Origin: Thermoplasmata archaeon
GTDB taxonomy: Archaea; Thermoplasmatota; Thermoplasmata; Lutacidiplasmatales; UBA184
Length of the DNA: 40,996 nucleotides
Assembly (NCBI GenBank): GCA_030040625.1
Contig: JASHTI010000159.1
Span: 1 to 40,996 of the forward strand
Direction of reading: 5' to 3'
Shown here: positions 13,953 through 23,955 of the stretch, in pieces
Numbering within the stretch: position 1 is the first letter of the stretch
Layout of the letters: every line of letters starts with the position of its first letter
Translations under genes and position numbers: made by a program
Notes under the pieces: generated by a model
The model's input: only the letters and a program-made list of their open reading frames with translations
Told to the model about the DNA's origin: nothing
Databases searched by the model: none

Positions 13953-14095
13953 GGCGGTCGCCGCCGCGACCCGGACCGGACGCCCCCCCCGGCGGACGCT
14001 CGGGGGACCGCCGCCGGCGGGGAATGCTAAAGGGCCGAGCTTGGCTACGCACCGGCCGGCGTTTCGAGGGGCGCGTGAGCCAGCCGCGGGCGTTC

Positions 14096-15076
14096 ATGGA
14101 TGGTCCCGACAACGACCGCGTCGAGGGCTCTCCTCGACCTCGGCGGCACCGTTTCGCGCGCGGGAAGGCACCGAACCCCCTGCTCCCGGTACTGGTCGGT
14201 GCGGCGGTCGCGGGGCTGGTGGTGTTCGGGGCCGGTCCGGGCGGCTTCCTGCTGCCCCGGGCGACGAGCTGCACCCTCGGGGTCCTCGTCGGGACCTACG
14301 AGATCTACACCGTCCTGACCCCGATGAACAAGCCCACGGGCGTCGACGTCGGCACCGTAGCCGCGACCGGCGGACTCAACTTCACGTTCACCTCGGGGTC
14401 GCTGACCGTCGGCGGTCTGAGAATCGGACCCGGCACGGCCGGGTGGGGGGATTATAGCCCCCATGGCGGCATCTCGGCGATGGGCGCCGAGGAGAACTGG
14501 TCCGTCTACGCGGTCCGGAACACCACTCGGCTCGGCGGGATCGCCGCGCCCTGCACGCAGGCGTACGTCGCCGAGATCACGCCCGGTTCCATTCCCACAT
14601 GCTCGGGGTTTCTGACCCTCCCGCTGGCGGACAACGACTCCGATACGATGGAACCGCACGTCTGGGATGGGACCGGGAACGACACAGGAGCCGGCAATGG
14701 AACCTACTGGTGGGGCTACGGATGCTCCGCGGCCACTCCCGGCGCCCGCTACTGGTTCGACACTTCGTTCCACACCGGTTCGGCCGCTTCGGCGCCCGCC
14801 GTGACCTGGAACCTCTGCGGGCATCCGGGTCGCTATCCGCTCGTCGTCTCGGGCCCGGTCCGCGTCCCGATCGTGGTCACGGTTCCCTCTTCGGGAGGTC
14901 CCCTCTCCGCTCACGGCTTCATGAGCTGGGATGCGGGCCCGGGATCGTCGACGGCGAACTACTCGTTGCCCGGGGGGTGGATCTGGCAGTTGGCGCCGGT
15001 CGGGCCGGTGTCGACCCCCTGGAACCTGCCGGGTCCGCTATCCGCTACGGTGGCGTTCGAAAGGGCGAGCTGCTAG
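14096..15076 (+). CDS. hypothetical membrane-anchored / secreted Cys- and Gly-rich protein (about 326 aa)
   Basis: An N-terminal basic stretch plus one TM helix (LLPVLVGAAVAGLVVFGAG) is followed by a Thr/Gly/Trp-rich ectodomain with several N-x-S/T sequons and paired cysteines. No family recognised. The start could be either 14024 or 14096. Confidence 0.55.
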   Translation: MDGPDNDRVEGSPRPRRHRFARGKAPNPLLPVLVGAAVAGLVVFGAGPGGFLLPRATSCTLGVLVGTYEIYTVLTPMNKPTGVDVGTVAATGGLNFTFTSGSLTVGGLRIGPGTAGWGDYSPHGGISAMGAEENWSVYAVRNTTRLGGIAAPCTQAYVAEITPGSIPTCSGFLTLPLADNDSDTMEPHVWDGTGNDTGAGNGTYWWGYGCSAATPGARYWFDTSFHTGSAASAPAVTWNLCGHPGRYPLVVSGPVRVPIVVTVPSSGGPLSAHGFMSWDAGPGSSTANYSLPGGWIWQLAPVGPVSTPWNLPGPLSATVAFERASC

Positions 15077-15448
15077 CCCCTGGCGCACGCCGCAGGAGCG
15101 GGTCCGGCGGACCCCGCTCGTCCGACGCTCGGGTCCCGGGTCCGGCGGGGGACCAGCGCCTCGGGTCCCGTACTAGTCCGGGCCATGCGGGCCCGGGCTC
15201 GACCCGGATGCCCCTCATGTACCGGCTCGACTTCGCTGTTCCGGTCCGCAAGGATCGCCGGGCAGGACCCGGAACGGAGTAGCCCCTGTCCGGCGCACAC
15301 CACATCCAGCGGTGCGCGCGGCGCTCCGTCTCCCCCTGCCCGCGCTAGGCGCGTCCAAGAACGAGTCCTTCACGTCCCGACTTTGGACGGCCACGACGGT
15401 CGGACGCCGAGGTCCCGAATCCTGAACAGAACCAGCGCCTCGCCGGGT

Positions 15449-15456
15449 CTATATAC
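15449..15456 (+). promoter_or_regulatory. TATA-box-like element upstream of the RHH-ftsZ-like operon
   Basis: CTATATAC sits in the only AT-rich island of a 430-nt intergenic region, about 55 nt upstream of the ATG at 15511. Confidence 0.5.
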
Positions 15457-15476
15457 CGGAGAAGCGATATGTCATC

Positions 15477-15506
15477 TGTCAGACAAAACTGACCATATTG
15501 TCTGAC
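15477..15506. promoter_or_regulatory. putative operator: two TGTCnGAC palindromes 22 bp apart, also readable as a perfect 9-bp inverted repeat GTCAGACAA/TTGTCTGAC
   Basis: Read directly: TGTCAGACA at 15477-15485 and TGTCTGAC at 15499-15506. They lie between the TATA-like box and the start codon of an RHH DNA-binding protein. Confidence 0.5.
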
Positions 15507-15510
15507 GGCC

Positions 15511-15876
15511 ATGGTCGATACCTCCGAGCGCGTGACCGTCCGCATCCCCGAGGAGCTCCTGGAGAAGCTCAAGCGGATCCAGGGCGAGCGCAGCACGGGC
15601 ACGATCTCGGACACGATCCGCGAGGGGCTCGAGCAGTACGTCGAGCTCCACCTGCCGCCGCACCACATCCGCAAGGTCGTCGTCGAGCTCTCGCGGCGGG
15701 ACAACAGCCGACTCGAGGAGTTCGTGCGCGAGGGCAACTCGGTGAGCGTGGACGACGCGGTCCGCTCGGCGGTCCGCGAGTACATCCGGAGTCGAATCGA
15801 TCAGCTCGGTCCCTCCTCCCGCCTGCACCGGCGCGAAGCGGACCCGGTCGCGGCGGAGGGCACCCCCCCGCCGTAG
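15511..15876 (+). CDS. tandem ribbon-helix-helix (CopG/Arc/MetJ-type) DNA-binding protein (121 aa), CdrS/CdrL-like by context
   Basis: Two consecutive beta-strand/helix/G-x-S-T turn/helix units: RVTVRIPEELLEKLKRIQGERSTGTISDTIREGLEQYV and KVVVELSRRDNSRLEEFVREGNSVSVDDAVRSAVREYI. The stop lies 13 nt upstream of an FtsZ-family gene. Confidence 0.7.
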   Translation: MVDTSERVTVRIPEELLEKLKRIQGERSTGTISDTIREGLEQYVELHLPPHHIRKVVVELSRRDNSRLEEFVREGNSVSVDDAVRSAVREYIRSRIDQLGPSSRLHRREADPVAAEGTPPP

Positions 15877-15889
15877 GGTCGCCACAACG

Positions 15890-16918
15890 ATGGACGACGA
15901 CGGCGGGTCGGCGGAGACGCTCAACGCCTTCGCCCTGTCGCCGTCGATCGCCGTCGTCGGGCTCGGCGGCGCCGGCAGCGAGGCGGTCCAGGACCTGGTC
16001 ACGCTCGGCCTTCCCGGAGCGCGCGCGATCGCGGTGAACACCGACGCGATGCACCTGCAACGGGTCGGGGTCGAGGAGCGGATCCTGCTCGGGCGGCGCG
16101 AGCTGCGAGGCCGAGGCAGCGGCGGCGACCGCGAGGCCGTTCTGCGGGCCGCGGAGGAGAGCCGCGAGGAGATCCTCCGCCGACTGGCCCGGTTCGAGCT
16201 CGTCTTCCTGCTCGCCGGTCTCGGAGGCGGGACCGGCAGCGCGCTCCTGCCGTTCCTCTCGCGAGAACTACGGAGCACCGCCACGCTCCCGGTGCCGGTC
16301 GTCTTCCTGCCGTTCCACCTCGAGCTCGAGGCGAACCCGACTCGGACGGAGAACGTGGAGCGGACGATCGGCGAGCTCGAGGAGCTCGGCGGCCTGCTCC
16401 TGGCGCTCGCCAACGAGAAGCTCCGGCGGTTCGACTCGCTCTCGATCCACCGGGCCTTCGGGGTCCGGAACGCCTACCTCCACGGGCTGGTCGCGAGCCT
16501 CGTCGACATGGTCGACCACCCCTCGCAGCTGAACGTCGATCTCGCCAGCCTGAAGAACCACCTGCGGCAGTCCGGCCTCTCGACGCTCGTCATCGGTGAG
16601 GAACACATCAGCGAGCCCGGGCGCCTGGTCCACCAGGCGCTCGCCGACTCTCTGCTCGACTTCCGCCTGCCGGAGCACCCCTCGGCCCTCGTCCACCTGG
16701 AGGGCGGGACGAACCTCACGCTGCAGACGCTTGACGCCGTCTGGCGCGAGGTTCGGGAGCGGTTCCGCGAGCCCGGTCGCCTCGTCTTCGGCACCCGGAT
16801 CCGACCCGAGCCGCGCGAGGTGATCCGTCTCACCGCGGTGCTCGGCGGCCTCCGACCCCGGACCGTCCGGGAGGCGCTGCGACCGTCGTCGGATCGGCAG
16901 CCTCTGGCCGCGACCTAG
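15890..16918 (+). CDS. divergent FtsZ/tubulin-family GTPase paralog (342 aa)
   Basis: Alignable by eye with FtsZ: IAVVGLGGAGSEAV (G1), AVNTDAMHL, GRGSGGD..AVLRAAEESREEI (T3), LLAGLGGGTGSA (tubulin signature), NVDLASLKNHL (T7). The C-terminal tail is short. Confidence 0.8.
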   Translation: MDDDGGSAETLNAFALSPSIAVVGLGGAGSEAVQDLVTLGLPGARAIAVNTDAMHLQRVGVEERILLGRRELRGRGSGGDREAVLRAAEESREEILRRLARFELVFLLAGLGGGTGSALLPFLSRELRSTATLPVPVVFLPFHLELEANPTRTENVERTIGELEELGGLLLALANEKLRRFDSLSIHRAFGVRNAYLHGLVASLVDMVDHPSQLNVDLASLKNHLRQSGLSTLVIGEEHISEPGRLVHQALADSLLDFRLPEHPSALVHLEGGTNLTLQTLDAVWREVRERFREPGRLVFGTRIRPEPREVIRLTAVLGGLRPRTVREALRPSSDRQPLAAT

Positions 16919-17541
16919 CGCCCGCCGCGGCCGTCCTTCTCGCCGGCCTCCCGAAGGTCGAGCTCGCGCTGCACCGCATCGATCACCTGACTGGTCCGCA
17001 GGGAGCGGGGGCCCACCGAGAGCCGGGGGACCCCGCTTTCCCCGAGCAGGCGGGCCTCCTCCCCTTCCGGCTCGAACGGGTCGGAGAGGAACCCGCGGAA
17101 CTCCGAGGGGGAGATCGGGTGCCCTCCGATCGGGGAGCCCACCTCGGTCAGCCAGACGGCTCCCGGTTCGCGGAGGAATCCGGCGACGATCGCGAGAGGG
17201 TCGGCCGGGCCGACCTTGAGCCCCGGGGACGCCTCGAAGTCCGAGGGGTAGCGCGCCGCCCCGACCAGCGCGTTCTTCAGCAGGGCCGCCGTCGAACGCT
17301 CGTCCGGATACAGGTGGCGCAGACGGGCCCCGCTGAGCTCGATCCGACGCGCGTTCGGAGGCGGCTCGGCCGCGAAGACGACCGTCATCTCGGTGTCGCG
17401 GCGGAGGTCGTTCGACAGGGTGAAGGCCGTCGAGACGCTCCGGGCGATCTCGTCCATCCGGCCCGCCCCGCCGGCGAGGTCGTTGAGGGTGAACGCCCCG
17501 CTGGGGGGGACCCGGTGGGCGACCAGCAGGAACCGGCGCAC
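16915..17541 (-). CDS. trmY: tRNA (pseudouridine54-N1)-methyltransferase TrmY (SPOUT, DUF358; 208 aa, GTG start)
   Basis: MRRFLLVAH......F.LNDLAG.AGRMDEIARSV..AF..S...RRD....VVF...PP matches the TrmY family pattern. Its stop codon shares the CTAG tetranucleotide with the ftsZ-like stop. Confidence 0.75.
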   Translation of the reverse strand: MRRFLLVAHRVPPSGAFTLNDLAGGAGRMDEIARSVSTAFTLSNDLRRDTEMTVVFAAEPPPNARRIELSGARLRHLYPDERSTAALLKNALVGAARYPSDFEASPGLKVGPADPLAIVAGFLREPGAVWLTEVGSPIGGHPISPSEFRGFLSDPFEPEGEEARLLGESGVPRLSVGPRSLRTSQVIDAVQRELDLREAGEKDGRGGR

Positions 17542-21506: not shown

Positions 21507-22049
21507 GTGCCCGTCCCCCGTCGTCGCGGAAGCTCTTCGCCGACCGTCGACGAGGAGGAGGCGCTCCGGTCCCGTCGCCGTCGGGCCACCGAGGAGGCGC
21601 TCGAGGTCCGACTCCGATCCGAGCGCCCGGTCGTGGAGCTCGAGGTCCGCAACCCCGCCCACGGAACGAGCTACCGGGTCTTCCTGCCGGAGTACCCGGA
21701 GCGGGCCTCGGCGCTCTGCACGTGCACGGATTTCGCCCGACGCGGGCTCGGTACCTGCAAGCACCTGGAGGCGGCCGTGGCCGCGTCCTCCGACCTCGCG
21801 GCCCTCCCCCGCGCTGCCGGCGGGGAACCGCCCGCGGTCCCGGTCGGGGAGCTCTGGGCCGAGCTCGAGCGGCTCCGCGCGGGACTCCTGCGGCACCCGC
21901 CCCGGGAGATCCGCGAGCTCGAGGCGGCCGGTCGGCCGATGTGGAGCCGCCCGAGCGGGGAGTTGAAGAAGGAAGGGGTCGAAGAAGGGGTTGGCCGCGG
22001 CCGGAGGGGCCCCGACCGCGCTACGTCGACATCCCCGGCGCGCCCTTGA
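21507..22049 (+). CDS. SWIM zinc-finger domain protein (180 aa, GTG start)
   Basis: CxCx(n)CxH signature read directly: ALCTCTDFARRGLGTCKHLEAAV. The remainder is Arg/Glu-rich and helical. The 3' end overlaps the convergent radical SAM gene by 29 nt. Confidence 0.6.
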   Translation: MPVPRRRGSSSPTVDEEEALRSRRRRATEEALEVRLRSERPVVELEVRNPAHGTSYRVFLPEYPERASALCTCTDFARRGLGTCKHLEAAVAASSDLAALPRAAGGEPPAVPVGELWAELERLRAGLLRHPPREIRELEAAGRPMWSRPSGELKKEGVEEGVGRGRRGPDRATSTSPARP

Positions 22050-23730
22050 GCGCCCGGATCTTGTAGTACTCAGGGTCGACGATGACCTCGCCGTTGACGC
22101 CCATCGTCTCGATCGTCTTCAGCTGCACGCCGCTCTGGGACTTGGCGCGCTGCCAGTCCGGGATCGGGATCGAGAACTTCTTCTCGACCTCCGTCCGGTA
22201 GATCGGGCCCGAGTTGTAGCTGCAGAACGGGATGACGCGCCCGTCCGGGACGGCGTAGTGGATGTCGCAGCGCATCAGGCGCTGGATATCGTAGTCGTAG
22301 GCGTCCTGGAAGTGCATGTTGCCGATGTAGAGCGTCCGCCAGGTGAACTTCGCGACGGCCTCCTTGTTCCCCTCGGTGAAGATCGAGGCGATCACGCGGA
22401 CGCAGTTCTTCTCGTTCAGCCCCTCCGGCGCCCGCGAGAAGTCGAAGTACTTCGCGACGTCGTGCAGGAGCTTCGCCCCGGCGACCGCCGTCCGGACCCG
22501 CGCGAAGCGCGCGTCCCGGTACTTCTCGATCATCGACTCGACGTTCTCGAAGAAGCCGTCGACGTCCATGAACCGCGGCAGCGGGGTGATCTTCTGGCCG
22601 TCCTGGCTGATGAAGGCGAACGTCGCGCAGCCGCAGCCGGGGTGCGTCGTGAGCGTCATCTTCTCCTCCCCGTGGATGATCGACGTCAGCTCGGAGATCG
22701 GCGCCACCGACGGGACCGGGAAGAAGTCCGACCGCTCGAACGGTCCGTCCGTGCAGAGGATGCGGACGAGGTCCGACTGGGTGAACCGCATCTGGAAGCG
22801 GTCCTTGTCGGGGATCCGCGCGGTCAGGGCGACCGGCTGGAAGTTGACCCCGCGGACGACGTCGATGTTGTCGATCGCGAAGCGGACCGTCGGCCAGATC
22901 TCCTTCTCGTTGAACCCGCCGACCAGCGTCGGGACGAGGACGACCGACAGCGGCTTGTCCGGCTTGCCCGCCGCGAGCTCGCTCGCCGGCGCGTGGGTCT
23001 CCCGGGCCGCCTGGATCGCCTTCTGCTTGACCTTCAGCAGGGGGACGCCGCGGACCTTGCGGTAGATCTCGTCGTCCAGCCCATCGAACTGCAGGTAGAG
23101 GGTGTGCAGCCCCGCGTCCCGGCACGCCTGGGCGAAGCCGGGCTCGTTGGCGACGCGGATGCCGTTCGTCGCGACCTGGATCTGCTTGAACCCGAGGTCC
23201 CGGGACATGCTGACCGCGTCCAGGAACAGCGGCGAGAGCGTCGGCTCCCCGCCCGAGAACTGGACGGCGACCGTGCCGACCGGCTTCTGCTCGCGGAGCG
23301 TCTTCAGCATGAAGTGGATCTGCTCGCGCGTCGGCTCGAAGACGTAGCCGGCCGCGTTCGCGTTCGCGAAGCAGACCGGGCACTTCAGGTTGCAGCGGTT
23401 GGTCAGATCGACCAGCGCCAGCCCCGTGTGGGACTTGTGGTGGCTGCACATCCCGCAGGTCGTCGGGCAGCCGCGGAACTTGTCGTAGTACGGGTTCTCG
23501 TAGCCGACCCCGTCGTGCGCGTAGACCTCCATCCGGAGGTAGAAGTCGACGTCGTTGGAGATGATGTCCCAGAAGTAGCCGTGGGCACGGCACGTCTTCT
23601 CCATGATGACGCGGCCCTCCTTCTCTCGAACGATCGCCGGGATGACCTTGATGCACTCCGGGCAGACGGAGGCGGTCTTGCGGGGCAGTCCCCGCGGGGC
23701 CTGGAACTCCTTCATCACACGCGCCGGCAT
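22021..23730 (-). CDS. tes: radical SAM protein, tetraether lipid synthase (Tes / GDGT-MAS, MJ0619-like) candidate (about 569 aa)
   Basis: N-terminal CPEC...C..H knuckle, auxiliary CPTTCGMCSHH, radical SAM LTNRCNLKCPVCFANA plus VQFSGGEPTL, and a large C-terminal domain with further Cys (HPGCGCATF, FCSYN). I prefer the ATG at 23730 because GGAG lies about 10 nt upstream. Confidence 0.65.
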   Translation of the reverse strand: MPARVMKEFQAPRGLPRKTASVCPECIKVIPAIVREKEGRVIMEKTCRAHGYFWDIISNDVDFYLRMEVYAHDGVGYENPYYDKFRGCPTTCGMCSHHKSHTGLALVDLTNRCNLKCPVCFANANAAGYVFEPTREQIHFMLKTLREQKPVGTVAVQFSGGEPTLSPLFLDAVSMSRDLGFKQIQVATNGIRVANEPGFAQACRDAGLHTLYLQFDGLDDEIYRKVRGVPLLKVKQKAIQAARETHAPASELAAGKPDKPLSVVLVPTLVGGFNEKEIWPTVRFAIDNIDVVRGVNFQPVALTARIPDKDRFQMRFTQSDLVRILCTDGPFERSDFFPVPSVAPISELTSIIHGEEKMTLTTHPGCGCATFAFISQDGQKITPLPRFMDVDGFFENVESMIEKYRDARFARVRTAVAGAKLLHDVAKYFDFSRAPEGLNEKNCVRVIASIFTEGNKEAVAKFTWRTLYIGNMHFQDAYDYDIQRLMRCDIHYAVPDGRVIPFCSYNSGPIYRTEVEKKFSIPIPDWQRAKSQSGVQLKTIETMGVNGEVIVDPEYYKIRALKGAPGMST

Positions 23731-23955
23731 TGCTGGTTCTCCGTTGCTCCCCGCCCCCCGAGGGGGCCGTGGGGTTAGGTGGCCCACCTACCCCGACCTA
23801 CATAACCCATCTGTCGTTCAGACAGCGACAGAACCCCCCTCCCCGTGACGAGCAATCGCACGGTTCGCCGAGCGACAACCGCCCCCGGGACGAGGCCGCG
23901 GGGGGGGACGGAGCCGCCTAGGTTATCGGCCCGTACGGCTCGGGAACGATCGTTC

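What the first reader, a model, noticed from the sequence alone, without database searches (positions are those of the whole stretch)
15448..16918. RHH regulator plus FtsZ paralog operon resembling the haloarchaeal cdrS-ftsZ2 cell-division unit, in a divergent form
A ribbon-helix-helix gene ends 13 nt before an FtsZ-family gene, behind the only AT-rich promoter island of a 430-nt gap. In haloarchaea a small RHH protein, CdrS, is co-transcribed with ftsZ2 and regulates division. A second RHH protein, CdrL, is encoded just upstream. Here the partner proteins are unusual, as described in the separate findings on the single-chain double RHH and the tail-less FtsZ with altered G-box residues. The unit could be a variant division or membrane-remodelling module rather than the canonical ftsZ2 locus.
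Basis: partly seen in the sequence, partly recalled or inferred. Interest (0 to 1): 0.62.

Follow-up and report, generated by a model that had tools for sequence, protein, structure and literature searches.

The report
Doubled CdrS regulator with divergent FtsZ2
A peat/soil Thermoplasmata archaeon carries its own version of the known archaeal cdrS-ftsZ2 cell-division gene pair. The regulator is a fused double copy, and the FtsZ lacks a residue needed to trigger GTP hydrolysis and the usual SepF-binding tail, yet both genes are kept under purifying selection.

Summary
A 121-aa RHH gene (15511-15876) ends 13 nt before a 342-aa FtsZ-family gene (15890-16918). Both lie behind the only AT-rich island (GC 0.40-0.45) of a 434-nt gap.

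The pair is conserved in hundreds of peat and soil Thermoplasmata contigs, while its outer neighbours vary.

The RHH protein is a tandem duplication. Each half aligns with haloarchaeal CdrS (E 1e-8 and 1e-7).

The promoter carries two GTCWGAC boxes fixed at -33 and -11 from the ATG in eight lineages.

The FtsZ has a complete, confident FtsZ fold but forms a tight clade on a very long branch. Fixed changes are T1 Asn->Glu, T4 GGGTGSA, helix-7 Asp->Asn and T7 NVDLA(S/T). The T7 position is that of H. volcanii FtsZ2 D231, where D231A is non-functional and dominant-negative. The archaeal GID motif is absent.

Profile scores and an ML tree favour the FtsZ2 side. An AU test rejects an FtsZ1/bacterial placement in one dataset (p 0.018) but not in another. 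Placement outside FtsZ2 is not rejected (p 0.17).

Rates within the clade resemble those of housekeeping genes.

Verdict: a new variant of a known kind.

The parts
15449..15456 (+). TATA-box-like element CTATATAC. The predicted transcription start lies about 25 nt downstream, near 15478.
   Evidence: It lies in the only AT-rich island of the gap. The ATA core is conserved in 8 lineages, while sequence further upstream cannot be aligned. The start site is inferred from usual archaeal promoter geometry and is not measured.
15466..15474 (+). Invariant block GATATGTCA, at -45 from the RHH ATG. It is either a promoter-proximal/initiator region or a third half-site.
   Evidence: It is identical and at the same distance in all 8 lineages, and occurs nowhere else in 140 kb.
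15478..15487 (+). Box 1, GTCAGACAAA (palindromic core GTC-A-GAC). This is the left arm of the inverted repeat and a putative operator half.
   Evidence: It is invariant at -33 in 8 lineages and is one of only two GTCWGAC in the window.
15498..15506 (+). Box 2, TTGTCTGAC (core GTC-T-GAC). This is the right arm. Its centre lies 22 bp from the centre of box 1.
   Evidence: It is invariant at -11 in 8 lineages. The 11-12 nt between the arms vary freely.
15511..15876 (+). Tandem-RHH regulator, a CdrS-like module duplicated in one chain (121 aa).
   Evidence: Pfam RHH_1. It is 72-93% identical in 120 or more metagenome proteins. dN/dS is 0.10-0.18.
15526..15651 (+). RHH repeat 1 (residues 6-47). Its strand RVTVRIP keeps the CdrS R-T-R face.
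   Evidence: hhalign against CdrS: probability 95.6%, E 1.1e-8. NCBIfam aCcr1_fam E 5e-5, below its cutoff. AF2 strand 7-11, helices 14-26 and 32-47.
15670..15804 (+). RHH repeat 2 (residues 54-98). Its strand KVVVELS is degenerate. Its helices, including AVRSAVREY, are CdrS-like.
   Evidence: hhalign against CdrS: probability 94.2%, E 1.2e-7. NCBIfam CdrS model E 5e-4, below its cutoff. AF2 strand 55-59, helices 62-73 and 80-98.
15805..15873 (+). Conserved, predicted disordered C-terminal tail of the regulator (..HRREGEPVAAEGSPPP).
   Evidence: R107, R108 and P120 are invariant in 36 sequences. pLDDT is below 50. Function unknown.
15877..15889 (+). 13-nt spacer between the two genes, implying one transcript.
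   Evidence: Read from the sequence. Spacers are 13-17 nt in relatives. No promoter-like or terminator-like site was found inside. No RNA data exist.
15890..16918 (+). Divergent FtsZ (most likely FtsZ2-derived), 342 aa.
   Evidence: Tubulin plus FtsZ_C. TIGR00065 scores 183 bits against a cutoff of 295. AF2 pLDDT 86.6, and all top PDB fold matches are FtsZ. The family collapses to one 50%-identity cluster, and the next relatives are 30-33% identical.
15959..15988 (+). T1 loop GLGGAGSEAV. The usual Asn is Glu.
   Evidence: Glu in 118 of 119 family members, Asp in one. All reference FtsZ1 and FtsZ2 have Asn.
16223..16243 (+). T4 signature GGGTGSA. The last Gly of GGGTG[ST]G is Ala.
   Evidence: The last Gly is Ala in all 119 family members; 118 read GGGTGSA and one GGGSGSA.
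16469..16471 (+). Helix-7 Asn194, where FtsZ1, FtsZ2 and bacterial FtsZ have Asp.
   Evidence: Asn in 119 of 119. The references read (A/M)D(E/Q).
16532..16549 (+). T7 loop NVDLAS. The second catalytic Asp is Ser.
   Evidence: Ser in 109 and Thr in 10 of 119, never Asp or Glu. The aligned Asp in Haloferax FtsZ2 is residue 231. D231A is non-functional and dominant-negative in H. volcanii (bioRxiv 10.1101/2020.06.04.133736).
16853..16915 (+). Short C-terminal tail (residues 322-342) without the archaeal GID motif.
   Evidence: The family ends in RTVR(D/E)AL, then 7-8 variable residues, then P-[LVI]-x-[AV]-[RH]. Haloferax FtsZ2 ends ..NNGLDVIR and Thermoplasmata FtsZ1 ends ..GGIDMVN. pLDDT is below 50 from residue 325.

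Best explanation
This is the lineage-specific descendant of the archaeal cdrS-ftsZ2 cell-division operon in a high-GC peat/soil Thermoplasmata clade.

Shown:
- A two-gene unit sits behind one promoter-like island.
- The regulator is a CdrS-like RHH module duplicated in tandem.
- Two invariant GTCWGAC boxes lie 22 bp apart between the TATA box and the start codon.
- The FtsZ has a complete fold with fixed changes around the nucleotide pocket and the T7 loop, and it has no GID tail.
- Both genes are under purifying selection.

Inferred:
- The tandem-RHH protein folds as a single-chain pseudo-dimer, as AvtR does.
- One molecule binds each box, in inverted orientation on the same face of the DNA.
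- Because the boxes cover the predicted transcription start and leader, binding most likely auto-represses or sets the level of the bicistronic transcript.
- The FtsZ still binds GTP and still offers its nucleotide face to a partner.
- Its own T7 loop (Ser/Thr for the second Asp) activates hydrolysis poorly in the subunit below it. It would therefore form long-lived interfaces, either in homopolymers or mixed with a canonical FtsZ1.
- Without a GID motif it probably does not use SepF as FtsZ2 of Haloferax and Odinarchaeota does.
- The divergence happened as an early burst at the base of the clade, followed by normal constraint. That pattern fits a changed but maintained function.
For: Conservation of the pair:
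- The RHH-FtsZ pair is kept while the upstream neighbour varies (FTHFS, acetyltransferase, PQQ protein, two-component genes). An insertion can separate the downstream TrmY gene.

CdrS relationship:
- Anchor loci from Haloferax sp. Q22 and two other Halobacteriales carry a 59-61-aa CdrS directly before FtsZ2.
- The Haloferax protein ends in the published H. volcanii FtsZ2 peptide SDGGRDEVEKNNGLDVIR.
- Both halves of the window's regulator align with CdrS over the whole RHH (E 1.1e-8 and 1.2e-7). That is better than with each other (3.8e-4) or with CdrL (8.7e-6 and 0.019).

Operator:
- The boxes lie at -33 and -11 in all 8 lineages. The spacer and the upstream DNA vary, and dS is 0.6-1.0.
- Only 2 other GTCWGAC occur in 140 kb.

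FtsZ identity:
- PDB FtsZ chains score 146-147 bits against 45 bits for CetZ.
- The fold search returns only FtsZ, with target-normalised TM up to 0.91.
- The family scores 245-260 bits against an FtsZ2-grade profile, against 207-227 for FtsZ1 and 198-216 for bacterial FtsZ.
- A careful ML tree puts the family with 14 FtsZ2-grade sequences (UFBoot 95, SH-aLRT 97).
- An AU test rejects family + FtsZ1 + bacteria at p 0.018.

Selection:
- dN is 0.07-0.14 for RHH and 0.10-0.23 for FtsZ.
- Controls on the same loci: FTHFS 0.17-0.30, TrmY 0.22-0.32, RpoD 0.09-0.15.

Literature:
- ftsZ2 is usually next to an RHH/'parD' gene (PMC7439475; PMC9871819; PMC8178401).
- AvtR is a natural tandem RHH that binds DNA as a monomer and represses its own gene (PMC5569661).
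Against: - Phylogeny is not decisive. The family sits on a branch of about 2.5-3.5 substitutions per site.
- In the 109-row quick analysis, a tree with family + FtsZ1 + bacteria held together scored 9.5 log-likelihood units better than the free search (p-AU 0.68).
- In the 56-row set, placing the family outside a monophyletic FtsZ2 is not rejected (p 0.167).
- I named the groups after seeing the trees.
- The FtsZ2-grade sequences other than the haloarchaeal ones are labelled FtsZ2 only by tree position and by GIP/GID-like tails. I could not inspect their loci.
- Whether the genome also holds FtsZ1, SepF or a canonical cdrS-ftsZ2 is unknown.
- The RHH model has low confidence (pLDDT 57).
- No DNA-binding, transcript or GTPase data exist.
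- Haloarchaeal CdrS binds upstream of promoters and activates (PMC8406309), so repression here is inferred from box position alone.
- The repeat could instead act as an RNA hairpin.
Confidence: 0.62

Rival explanations
1. The protein is a third, independent FtsZ paralogue rather than the lineage's FtsZ2. It coexists with canonical FtsZ1 and FtsZ2 and has been recruited, with a duplicated CdrS-type regulator, to another filament-based task such as cell shape or membrane remodelling.
For: - There is a very long stem branch and only one 50%-identity cluster.
- Placement outside FtsZ2 is not rejected (p 0.167).
- The GID motif is lost and the GTPase loops are altered.
- TIGR00065 scores below its cutoff.
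- Some Thermoplasmata do multiply FtsZ genes: tandem FtsZ1 pairs occur in L092-L094.
Against: - The CdrS-like gene immediately upstream is the hallmark context of ftsZ2.
- Profile scores and the ML tree lean towards FtsZ2.
- No canonical FtsZ2 from this clade surfaced in any search, though none of the searches was exhaustive.
Confidence: 0.17
2. The inverted repeat works mainly as an RNA hairpin at the 5' end of the mRNA, ending 4 nt before the start codon. It would control translation or stability and would not be a protein operator.
For: - The predicted stem has 11 pairs, at -14.1 kcal/mol, z -2.7 against shuffles.
- It lies within the likely leader.
- The loop varies while the arms are kept.
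Against: - There is not one compensatory change. Both arms are invariant base for base in 8 lineages whose synonymous sites are near saturation. Sequence-specific protein recognition predicts this; mere pairing does not.
- Each arm is itself a short palindrome (GTCWGAC), which a hairpin does not need.
- A DNA-binding protein is encoded directly downstream.
- Rfam gives no match.
- The two roles do not exclude each other.
Confidence: 0.12
3. The unit is a chromosomal DNA-segregation cassette with the TubZRC/ParMRC layout: a centromere-like site, a DNA-binding adaptor and a cytomotive filament.
For: - The gene order (site, RHH, tubulin-like gene) resembles tubC-tubR-tubZ.
- There is a weak NCBIfam ParR hit (E 0.016, far below its cutoff).
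- The regulator has a conserved tail that could contact a partner.
- The FtsZ lacks the SepF-type tail.
Against: - Only two boxes are present and there is no iteron array.
- The locus is single-copy, among housekeeping genes, and kept syntenic over a whole clade.
- The protein has an FtsZ_C domain and matches only FtsZ structures.
- The regulator resembles CdrS.
Confidence: 0.04
4. The FtsZ gene is decaying, a relic that has lost catalysis and its anchor and no longer has a function.
For: Loss of the T7 Asp and of the GID motif. H. volcanii FtsZ2 D231A is non-functional.
Against: - The frame is intact in more than 119 family members, with the odd residues themselves fixed.
- dN is no higher than in FTHFS or TrmY on the same loci, and dN/dS is 0.18-0.38.
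- The fold is confident and complete.
Confidence: 0.02

Closest known systems
cdrS-ftsZ2 operon of Halobacteria (Halobacterium salinarum VNG0194H-VNG0192G; Haloferax volcanii HVO_0582-HVO_0581), with related RHH-ftsZ2 pairs in other archaea
   Same: - A small RHH gene lies directly upstream of an FtsZ-family gene, co-oriented, with a spacer of a few nucleotides.
- Both RHH halves are similar to CdrS in sequence (ERVT[LV]RIP; A[IV]RSAVR[DE]).
- Inverted repeats with a related half-site lie in front of the RHH gene: GTCTTAC in Haloferacaceae and GTCTGAC here.
- The FtsZ leans to the FtsZ2 side.
   Different: - The regulator is a tandem duplication (121 aa against 59-61 aa), and its second strand is degenerate.
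- There is no cdrL.
- The boxes lie between the TATA box and the ATG.
- The FtsZ has Ser/Thr at the D231 position, Glu in T1, Ala in the G-box and Asn in helix 7.
- The C-terminal extension is about 20 residues (against 59-73 aligned residues in the haloarchaeal anchors) and has no GID motif.
- Identity to any other FtsZ is only about 28-33%.
AvtR of Acidianus filamentous virus 6 (PDB 4HV0) and TraY of F plasmids: natural single-chain tandem RHH proteins
   Same: Two RHH motifs lie in one chain of about 100-120 residues. AvtR binds DNA as a monomer and represses its own gene, which is the mode proposed here.
   Different: There is no detectable sequence relationship: a profile search of PDB gives nothing significant. 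The duplication here is an independent event within the CdrS lineage, in a cellular chromosome and tied to ftsZ.
FtsZ T7-loop mutants (E. coli D212 class; H. volcanii FtsZ1 D250A and FtsZ2 D231A)
   Same: The same position of the NxDxxD motif is changed.
   Different: Here the change is natural, fixed as Ser or Thr in a whole clade, and accompanied by other fixed changes around the nucleotide pocket. The laboratory mutants poison division.
Odinarchaeota FtsZ1/FtsZ2 pair (PDB 9V7V for FtsZ1)
   Same: Two archaeal FtsZ types with different tails and different membrane attachment. This is a precedent for division of labour between paralogues.
   Different: OdinFtsZ2 needs its C-terminal 47 residues to bind SepF. 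The protein here has no comparable tail. Both Odin proteins keep NxDxx[D/E].

Membership tests
FtsZ proper (tubulin/FtsZ superfamily) | Tubulin-type GTPase domain followed by an FtsZ_C domain, in a complete two-domain fold | tested here: met
   PF00091 E 2.2e-25 and PF12327 E 5.2e-11. AF2 pLDDT 86.6. The top 50 PDB fold matches are all FtsZ, with target-normalised TM up to 0.91.
FtsZ proper (tubulin/FtsZ superfamily) | G-box GGGTG[ST]G and T7 motif NxDxx[D/E] | tested here: not met
   The family has GGGTGSA and NVDLA[ST], fixed in 119 family members.
FtsZ proper (tubulin/FtsZ superfamily) | Score above the NCBIfam equivalog cutoff (TIGR00065, 295.2 bits) | tested here: not met
   183 bits.
Archaeal FtsZ2 | Falls in the FtsZ2 clade, apart from FtsZ1 and bacterial FtsZ | tested here: inconclusive
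   It is favoured by profile scores (+35-40 bits) and by the ML tree (95/97). FtsZ1/bacterial placement is rejected at p 0.018 in 56 rows but not in 109 rows. Placement outside FtsZ2 is not rejected (p 0.167).
Archaeal FtsZ2 | RHH (cdrS/'parD') gene immediately upstream on the same strand | tested here: met
   The gap is 13 nt here. The same holds in all relatives and in the haloarchaeal and Asgard anchors.
Archaeal FtsZ2 | C-terminal extension ending in the GID-type SepF-binding motif | tested here: not met
   The tail has about 20 residues and no GID. Haloferax FtsZ2 ends ..NNGLDVIR. The motif definition is from PMC8178401.
Archaeal FtsZ2 | Coexists with FtsZ1 and SepF in the genome | not testable with these tools
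Matching contig lengths between FtsZ1 hits and family contigs gave no link. The 41-kb window holds no other division gene.
CdrS | RHH fold with CdrS-like sequence | tested here: met
   hhalign of CdrS against repeat 1 gives E 1.1e-8, and against repeat 2 E 1.2e-7.
CdrS | Single RHH module of about 55-61 residues that dimerises; score above the NCBIfam NF058555 cutoff (100 bits) | tested here: not met
   The protein has 121 aa with two modules in one chain. NF058555 scores 20 bits.
CdrS | Binds promoters of division genes and controls division | not testable with these tools
   There are no RNA runs and no whole genome to scan for further boxes.
CdrL | N-terminal RHH, a middle region and a C-terminal double zinc ribbon | tested here: not met
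   The protein has no Cys-rich C-terminus. The CdrL_M hit is E 0.079. CdrL RHH against repeat 2 gives E 0.019. True CdrL was seen in L006-L008.
CetZ | Closer to CetZ than to FtsZ; no FtsZ_C domain | tested here: not met
   CetZ chains score 35-45 bits against 146-147 for FtsZ. An FtsZ_C domain is present.
TubZRC / ParMRC-type partition cassette | Array of centromere iterons, a TubZ- or ParM-type filament protein, and a plasmid or phage setting | tested here: not met
   Only two boxes are present. The fold is FtsZ. The chromosomal housekeeping context is conserved.
Single-chain tandem RHH architecture (AvtR / TraY type) | Two strand-helix-helix units in one polypeptide | tested here: met
   Internal repeat E 3.8e-4. 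DSSP pattern E-H-H-E-H-H. This shares the architecture only. No homology to AvtR was detected.

The most novel reading that the evidence does not exclude
In this soil and peat Thermoplasmata clade, FtsZ2 has become a subunit that cannot activate GTP hydrolysis and has no SepF-type tail. It would work only beside a canonical FtsZ1, in a division of labour like that of alpha- and beta-tubulin with one catalytic and one silent interface. Alternatively it would build long-lived filaments that do not treadmill. Its regulator has at the same time become a single-chain, asymmetric RHH that reads a two-box operator as two monomers. Division in these archaea would then run on an FtsZ ring whose constriction subunit carries the very change that poisons division in Haloferax.
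Probability: 0.3. Interest if true: 0.75.

Novelty: new variant of a known kind. Interest (0 to 1): 0.55.

Why it matters
FtsZ2 is thought to be the constriction subunit of the archaeal ring, and in Haloferax its GTPase is taken to be essential for that role. Here a whole abundant, uncultured soil and peat lineage keeps, under normal purifying selection, an FtsZ2-like protein with Ser/Thr at that catalytic position and without the SepF-binding motif.

This gives a natural experiment on three questions:
- what the T7 aspartate is for;
- whether FtsZ paralogues can divide catalytic and structural roles, as tubulins do;
- how FtsZ is tethered when the GID tail is missing.

The doubled CdrS with its invariant two-box site is a compact, testable case of an RHH dimer turned into a single chain. 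It may also give a handle on the CdrS regulon outside halophiles.

No paper found by my searches describes either feature.

Tried and rejected
The search for FtsZ1, FtsZ2, SepF and ESCRT-III in the window's own genome could therefore not be run.
- As a substitute I searched with a Thermoplasmatota FtsZ1 (P0262). I looked for hits on contigs of the same length as the family's long contigs (1,808,284; 616,756; 438,973 bp and others). None matched among the 120 listed of 7,994 hits, so the result is uninformative.
It gave good anchors but no clade-wide census.
- P0249 (43% identity) looked like an outgroup but falls inside the family on an aberrant long branch. I dropped it.
- Cluster look-ups gave almost no useful names.
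- No RNA run holds the locus, so co-transcription and the start site rest on geometry alone.
- The AF2 model of the regulator has low confidence (pLDDT 57). I used only its secondary structure and ran no fold search on it.
- A PDB profile search with the regulator gave nothing significant. Rfam gave nothing.
- I considered a CdrL-CdrS fusion as the origin of the tandem protein and judged it less likely. CdrS fits both halves better, and CdrL has a loop five residues shorter.
- I considered and rejected the CetZ, TubZRC-like partition and decaying-gene readings (see rivals).
- The order name Lutacidiplasmatales/UBA184 comes from earlier AI notes. The clade's GC content and habitat fit PMC9287336. 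I could not link any assembly accession to that paper.


Full report
**1. Observation**

The window has 72% GC throughout.
- ORF 15511-15876 (+) encodes 121 aa, and ORF 15890-16918 (+) encodes 342 aa. They are 13 nt apart.
- Both have the high third-position GC of real genes in this genome (0.94 and 0.92).
- Pfam gives RHH_1 for the first protein, and Tubulin plus FtsZ_C for the second.
- NCBIfam's FtsZ equivalog scores 183 bits, below its cutoff of 295.
- The upstream gap is 434 nt. Its GC is 0.60-0.85, except at 15450-15509, where it drops to 0.40-0.45.
- That island holds CTATATAC and a perfect 9-bp inverted repeat.
- The FtsZ stop overlaps the convergent TrmY gene (16915-17541, minus strand). 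The unit therefore has exactly two genes.

**2. Organism and spread**

- The closest proteins are named only 'Thermoplasmata archaeon'. They come from JGI, ENA, NCBI and Logan assemblies.
- Runs that hold the stretch are peat and soil metagenomes.
- The identical FtsZ occurs in GCA_030052625.1, GCA_030048645.1 and GCA_030048775.1.
- Earlier AI notes call the clade Lutacidiplasmatales/UBA184. GC content and habitat fit that order's description (PMC9287336), but I could not verify the assignment.
- In eight lineages (FtsZ identity to the window 70-84%, plus the window) the RHH-FtsZ pair is always present.
- The gene upstream differs between lineages: FTHFS, acetyltransferase, a PQQ protein, two-component genes or hypotheticals. 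In one lineage an insertion separates TrmY.
- The rest of the window is ordinary chromosomal housekeeping. It holds no SepF, FtsZ1 or ESCRT-III gene.

**3. The regulator**

- An alignment of 36 homologues is 86% identical on average, and the conservation extends into the C-terminal tail.
- The two halves align with each other in register over 42 columns (E 3.8e-4).
- AlphaFold gave a low-confidence model (pLDDT 57), but its secondary structure is strand-helix-helix twice.
It returned Haloferax sp. Q22, a Halobacteriales MAG and Haloferacaceae DSL9.
- In each of these a 59-61-aa RHH protein (MERVTLRIPKQQIEEVE...NRSEAIRSAVRDML) lies directly before an FtsZ.
- The Haloferax FtsZ ends in SDGGRDEVEKNNGLDVIR, the C-terminal peptide published for H. 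volcanii FtsZ2. These loci are therefore genuine cdrS-ftsZ2 loci, and cdrL lies upstream of them.
- A CdrS profile matches repeat 1 (probability 95.6%, E 1.1e-8) and repeat 2 (94.2%, E 1.2e-7).
- CdrL's RHH fits less well (8.7e-6 with a 5-residue gap, and 0.019).
- Repeat 1 keeps the CdrS strand (RVTVRIP against RVTLRIP). Repeat 2 keeps the CdrS helices (AVRSAVREY against AIRSAVRDM), but its strand reads KVVVELS.
- The simplest history is a tandem duplication of cdrS followed by asymmetric divergence.
- Natural single-chain tandem RHH proteins are known. AvtR binds DNA as a monomer and represses its own gene (PMC5569661). No sequence link to any solved RHH was found.

**4. The promoter**

- Across the eight lineages the DNA upstream of the TATA box cannot be aligned.
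- Three blocks are invariant in sequence and position:
  - GATATGTCA at -45;
  - GTCAGACAAA with its core at -33;
  - TGTCTGAC with its core at -11.
- The 11-12 nt between the arms vary.
- Synonymous divergence between these lineages is 0.6-1.0.
- GTCWGAC occurs only at these two places in the window, against 6.2 expected. It occurs only twice elsewhere in 140 kb of related loci.
- The box centres are 22 bp apart.
- With the TATA box at 15449-15456, usual archaeal spacing puts the start near 15478, on box 1. This is an inference.
- I read the boxes as the operator of the tandem-RHH protein, with one molecule per box in inverted orientation, giving autoregulation of the operon.
- The same bases can fold as an RNA hairpin (-14.1 kcal/mol, z -2.7). 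Both arms are invariant base for base and show no compensatory change, which fits protein recognition better than pairing. The two roles do not exclude each other.

**5. The FtsZ**

*How isolated the family is*
- A full scan of 1.84 billion cluster representatives found one full-length family representative (531 bits).
- After fragments and double-FtsZ fusions, it found nothing better than about 162 bits at 30-33% identity.
- Best solved relatives are OdinFtsZ1 (9V7V) and M. jannaschii FtsZ1 at 146-147 bits. CetZ reaches only 35-45 bits.

*Fold*
- AlphaFold with a mixed alignment gives pLDDT 86.6 and pTM 0.85. Both domains are complete, and residues 1-15 and 325-342 are disordered.
- Foldseek returns only FtsZ structures.

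*Fixed residues in 119 family members*
- T1 is GLGGAGSE: Glu in 118, Asp in 1, where all references have Asn.
- T3 is GRGSGGDR.
- T4 is GGGTGSA.
- There is a 3-4-residue insert after the T5 PFxxE.
- Helix 7 has Asn where the references have Asp.
- T7 is NVDLA(S/T): Ser in 109, Thr in 10.
- The aligned Asp in Haloferax FtsZ2 is residue 231.
- H. volcanii ftsZ2.D231A fails to complement and blocks division even in wild type (bioRxiv 10.1101/2020.06.04.133736).

*Tail*
- The tail is about 20 residues: RTVR(D/E)AL, a short variable stretch, then P-[LVI]-x-[AV]-[RH].
- It lacks the GID motif that binds SepF (PMC8178401; PMC12583498).

**6. Which FtsZ?**

- The anchors were cdrS-linked Haloferacaceae FtsZ2, an RHH-linked Asgard FtsZ, M. 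jannaschii and Odin FtsZ1, and a Thermoplasmata FtsZ1 (L023).
- The relative of L023, P0432, sits before NusG/Spt5-L11-L1-L10 (preceded by an unannotated 80-aa ORF, possibly secE), the classic ftsZ1 context.
- A quick 109-row tree put the family beside Thermoplasmatota FtsZ2-like proteins of Natronoplasma and Sysuiplasma.
- An AU test on that set then found a better tree with the family held with FtsZ1 + bacteria (p 0.68). That search was therefore unreliable.
- A careful 56-row tree without the aberrant P0249 groups the family with 14 FtsZ2-grade sequences (95/97) and apart from FtsZ1 + bacteria (100/100).
- On that set, holding the family with FtsZ1 + bacteria costs 17.9 log-likelihood units (p 0.018).
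- Holding it outside all FtsZ2 costs 10.2 units (p 0.167).
- Group profiles give 245-260 bits for FtsZ2-grade, 207-227 for FtsZ1 and 198-216 for bacteria.
- The groups were named after the trees were seen, and the stem branch is 2.5-3.5 substitutions per site.

My conclusion is that an FtsZ2 origin is favoured by sequence and strongly suggested by the CdrS-type neighbour, but it is not proven.

**7. Selection**

- Window against seven lineages: dN/dS is 0.10-0.18 for RHH and 0.18-0.38 for FtsZ.
- dS is probably underestimated at this codon bias.
- Absolute dN of the FtsZ (0.10-0.23) is below FTHFS (0.17-0.30) and TrmY (0.22-0.32), and a little above RpoD (0.09-0.15) on the same loci.
- The protein is therefore not decaying. 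The long stem reflects an old burst followed by ordinary constraint.

**8. Comparison with what is known**

- The literature already says that cdrS-ftsZ2 is conserved across archaea (PMC7439475) and that ftsZ2 contexts usually hold an RHH_1 or 'parD' gene (PMC9871819, PMC8178401). The pairing itself is known biology.
- I could not find the following in any paper:
  - the single-chain doubled CdrS;
  - the invariant two-box site;
  - an FtsZ2-type protein fixed with a non-acidic T7 residue and no GID tail.
- Earlier AI notes of this scan report the same family in other genomes and reach similar readings. I treated them as leads and re-derived each point here.

**9. Limits**

The key question of which other FtsZ, SepF or CdrS genes the organism has is therefore open.
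- No transcript, binding or enzymatic data exist.

**Verdict**

This is a real, conserved, lineage-specific variant of the cdrS-ftsZ2 division operon. I rate it of moderate-to-good interest.

Noticed in passing
L006 3650-3770, L007 698-812, L008 3608-3724 (upstream of haloarchaeal cdrS): All three haloarchaeal cdrL-cdrS-ftsZ2 loci carry two conserved inverted-repeat pairs GTAAGAC...GTCTTAC. They lie at about -121/-110 and -53/-22 from the cdrS ATG. The half-site GTCTTAC differs by one base from the Thermoplasmata box GTCTGAC, so the cdrS promoter may have an operator of shared ancestry.
   Followed up: partly
L092, L093, L094: 5001-7399: A 67%-GC Thermoplasmata lineage (GCA_041476325.1 and two others) has two tandem FtsZ1-type genes (387 and 368 aa) before an unannotated 80-aa ORF (possibly secE), NusG/Spt5, L11, L1, L10 and P1. 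FtsZ1 is thus duplicated in place.
   Followed up: no
window 15077-15447: The roughly 370 nt between the upstream hypothetical gene and the promoter island are GC-rich (up to 0.85) and full of short direct and inverted repeats such as CGGGTCCGGCGG x2 and CTCGGGTCCCG x2. This stretch is not conserved in other lineages, where the upstream gene differs.
   Followed up: partly
window 14024-15076 (+): This ORF has no Pfam match, and its third-position GC failed my gene filter. The corresponding gene is called as a 333-aa product in the same-species assemblies only. It looks like a variable, secreted-type hypothetical protein.
   Followed up: no
window 15805-15873 (RHH residues 99-121): The disordered C-terminal tail of the regulator is conserved (HRREGEPVAAEGSPPP; R107, R108 and P120 invariant). 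Haloarchaeal CdrS has a different conserved end (..WAKV). Either could be a partner-binding peptide.
   Followed up: no
window 15914-15943 (FtsZ residues 9-18): The FtsZ has a short conserved N-terminal motif, (E/D)-x-(W/L/F)-x-x-L-A-x-(T/S)-P, ahead of the first strand. OdinFtsZ1 uses an N-terminal amphipathic helix to bind membrane (PMC12583498), so this motif could be an alternative tether.
   Followed up: no
P0278/P0422 (Ca. Sysuiplasma superficiale) and P0532: Sysuiplasma has a 320-aa FtsZ2-like protein whose T7 reads NVSYGD, with the first Asp replaced and almost no tail. Its longest contig has the same length (45,968 bp) as that of an FtsZ1. Odd FtsZ2 forms therefore seem common in Thermoplasmatota.
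   Followed up: partly
window 22021-23787 (-): This is a radical-SAM protein with an HMPTM-type zinc ribbon (the tetraether-lipid-synthase type). Its position downstream of the locus is conserved in most relatives.
   Followed up: no
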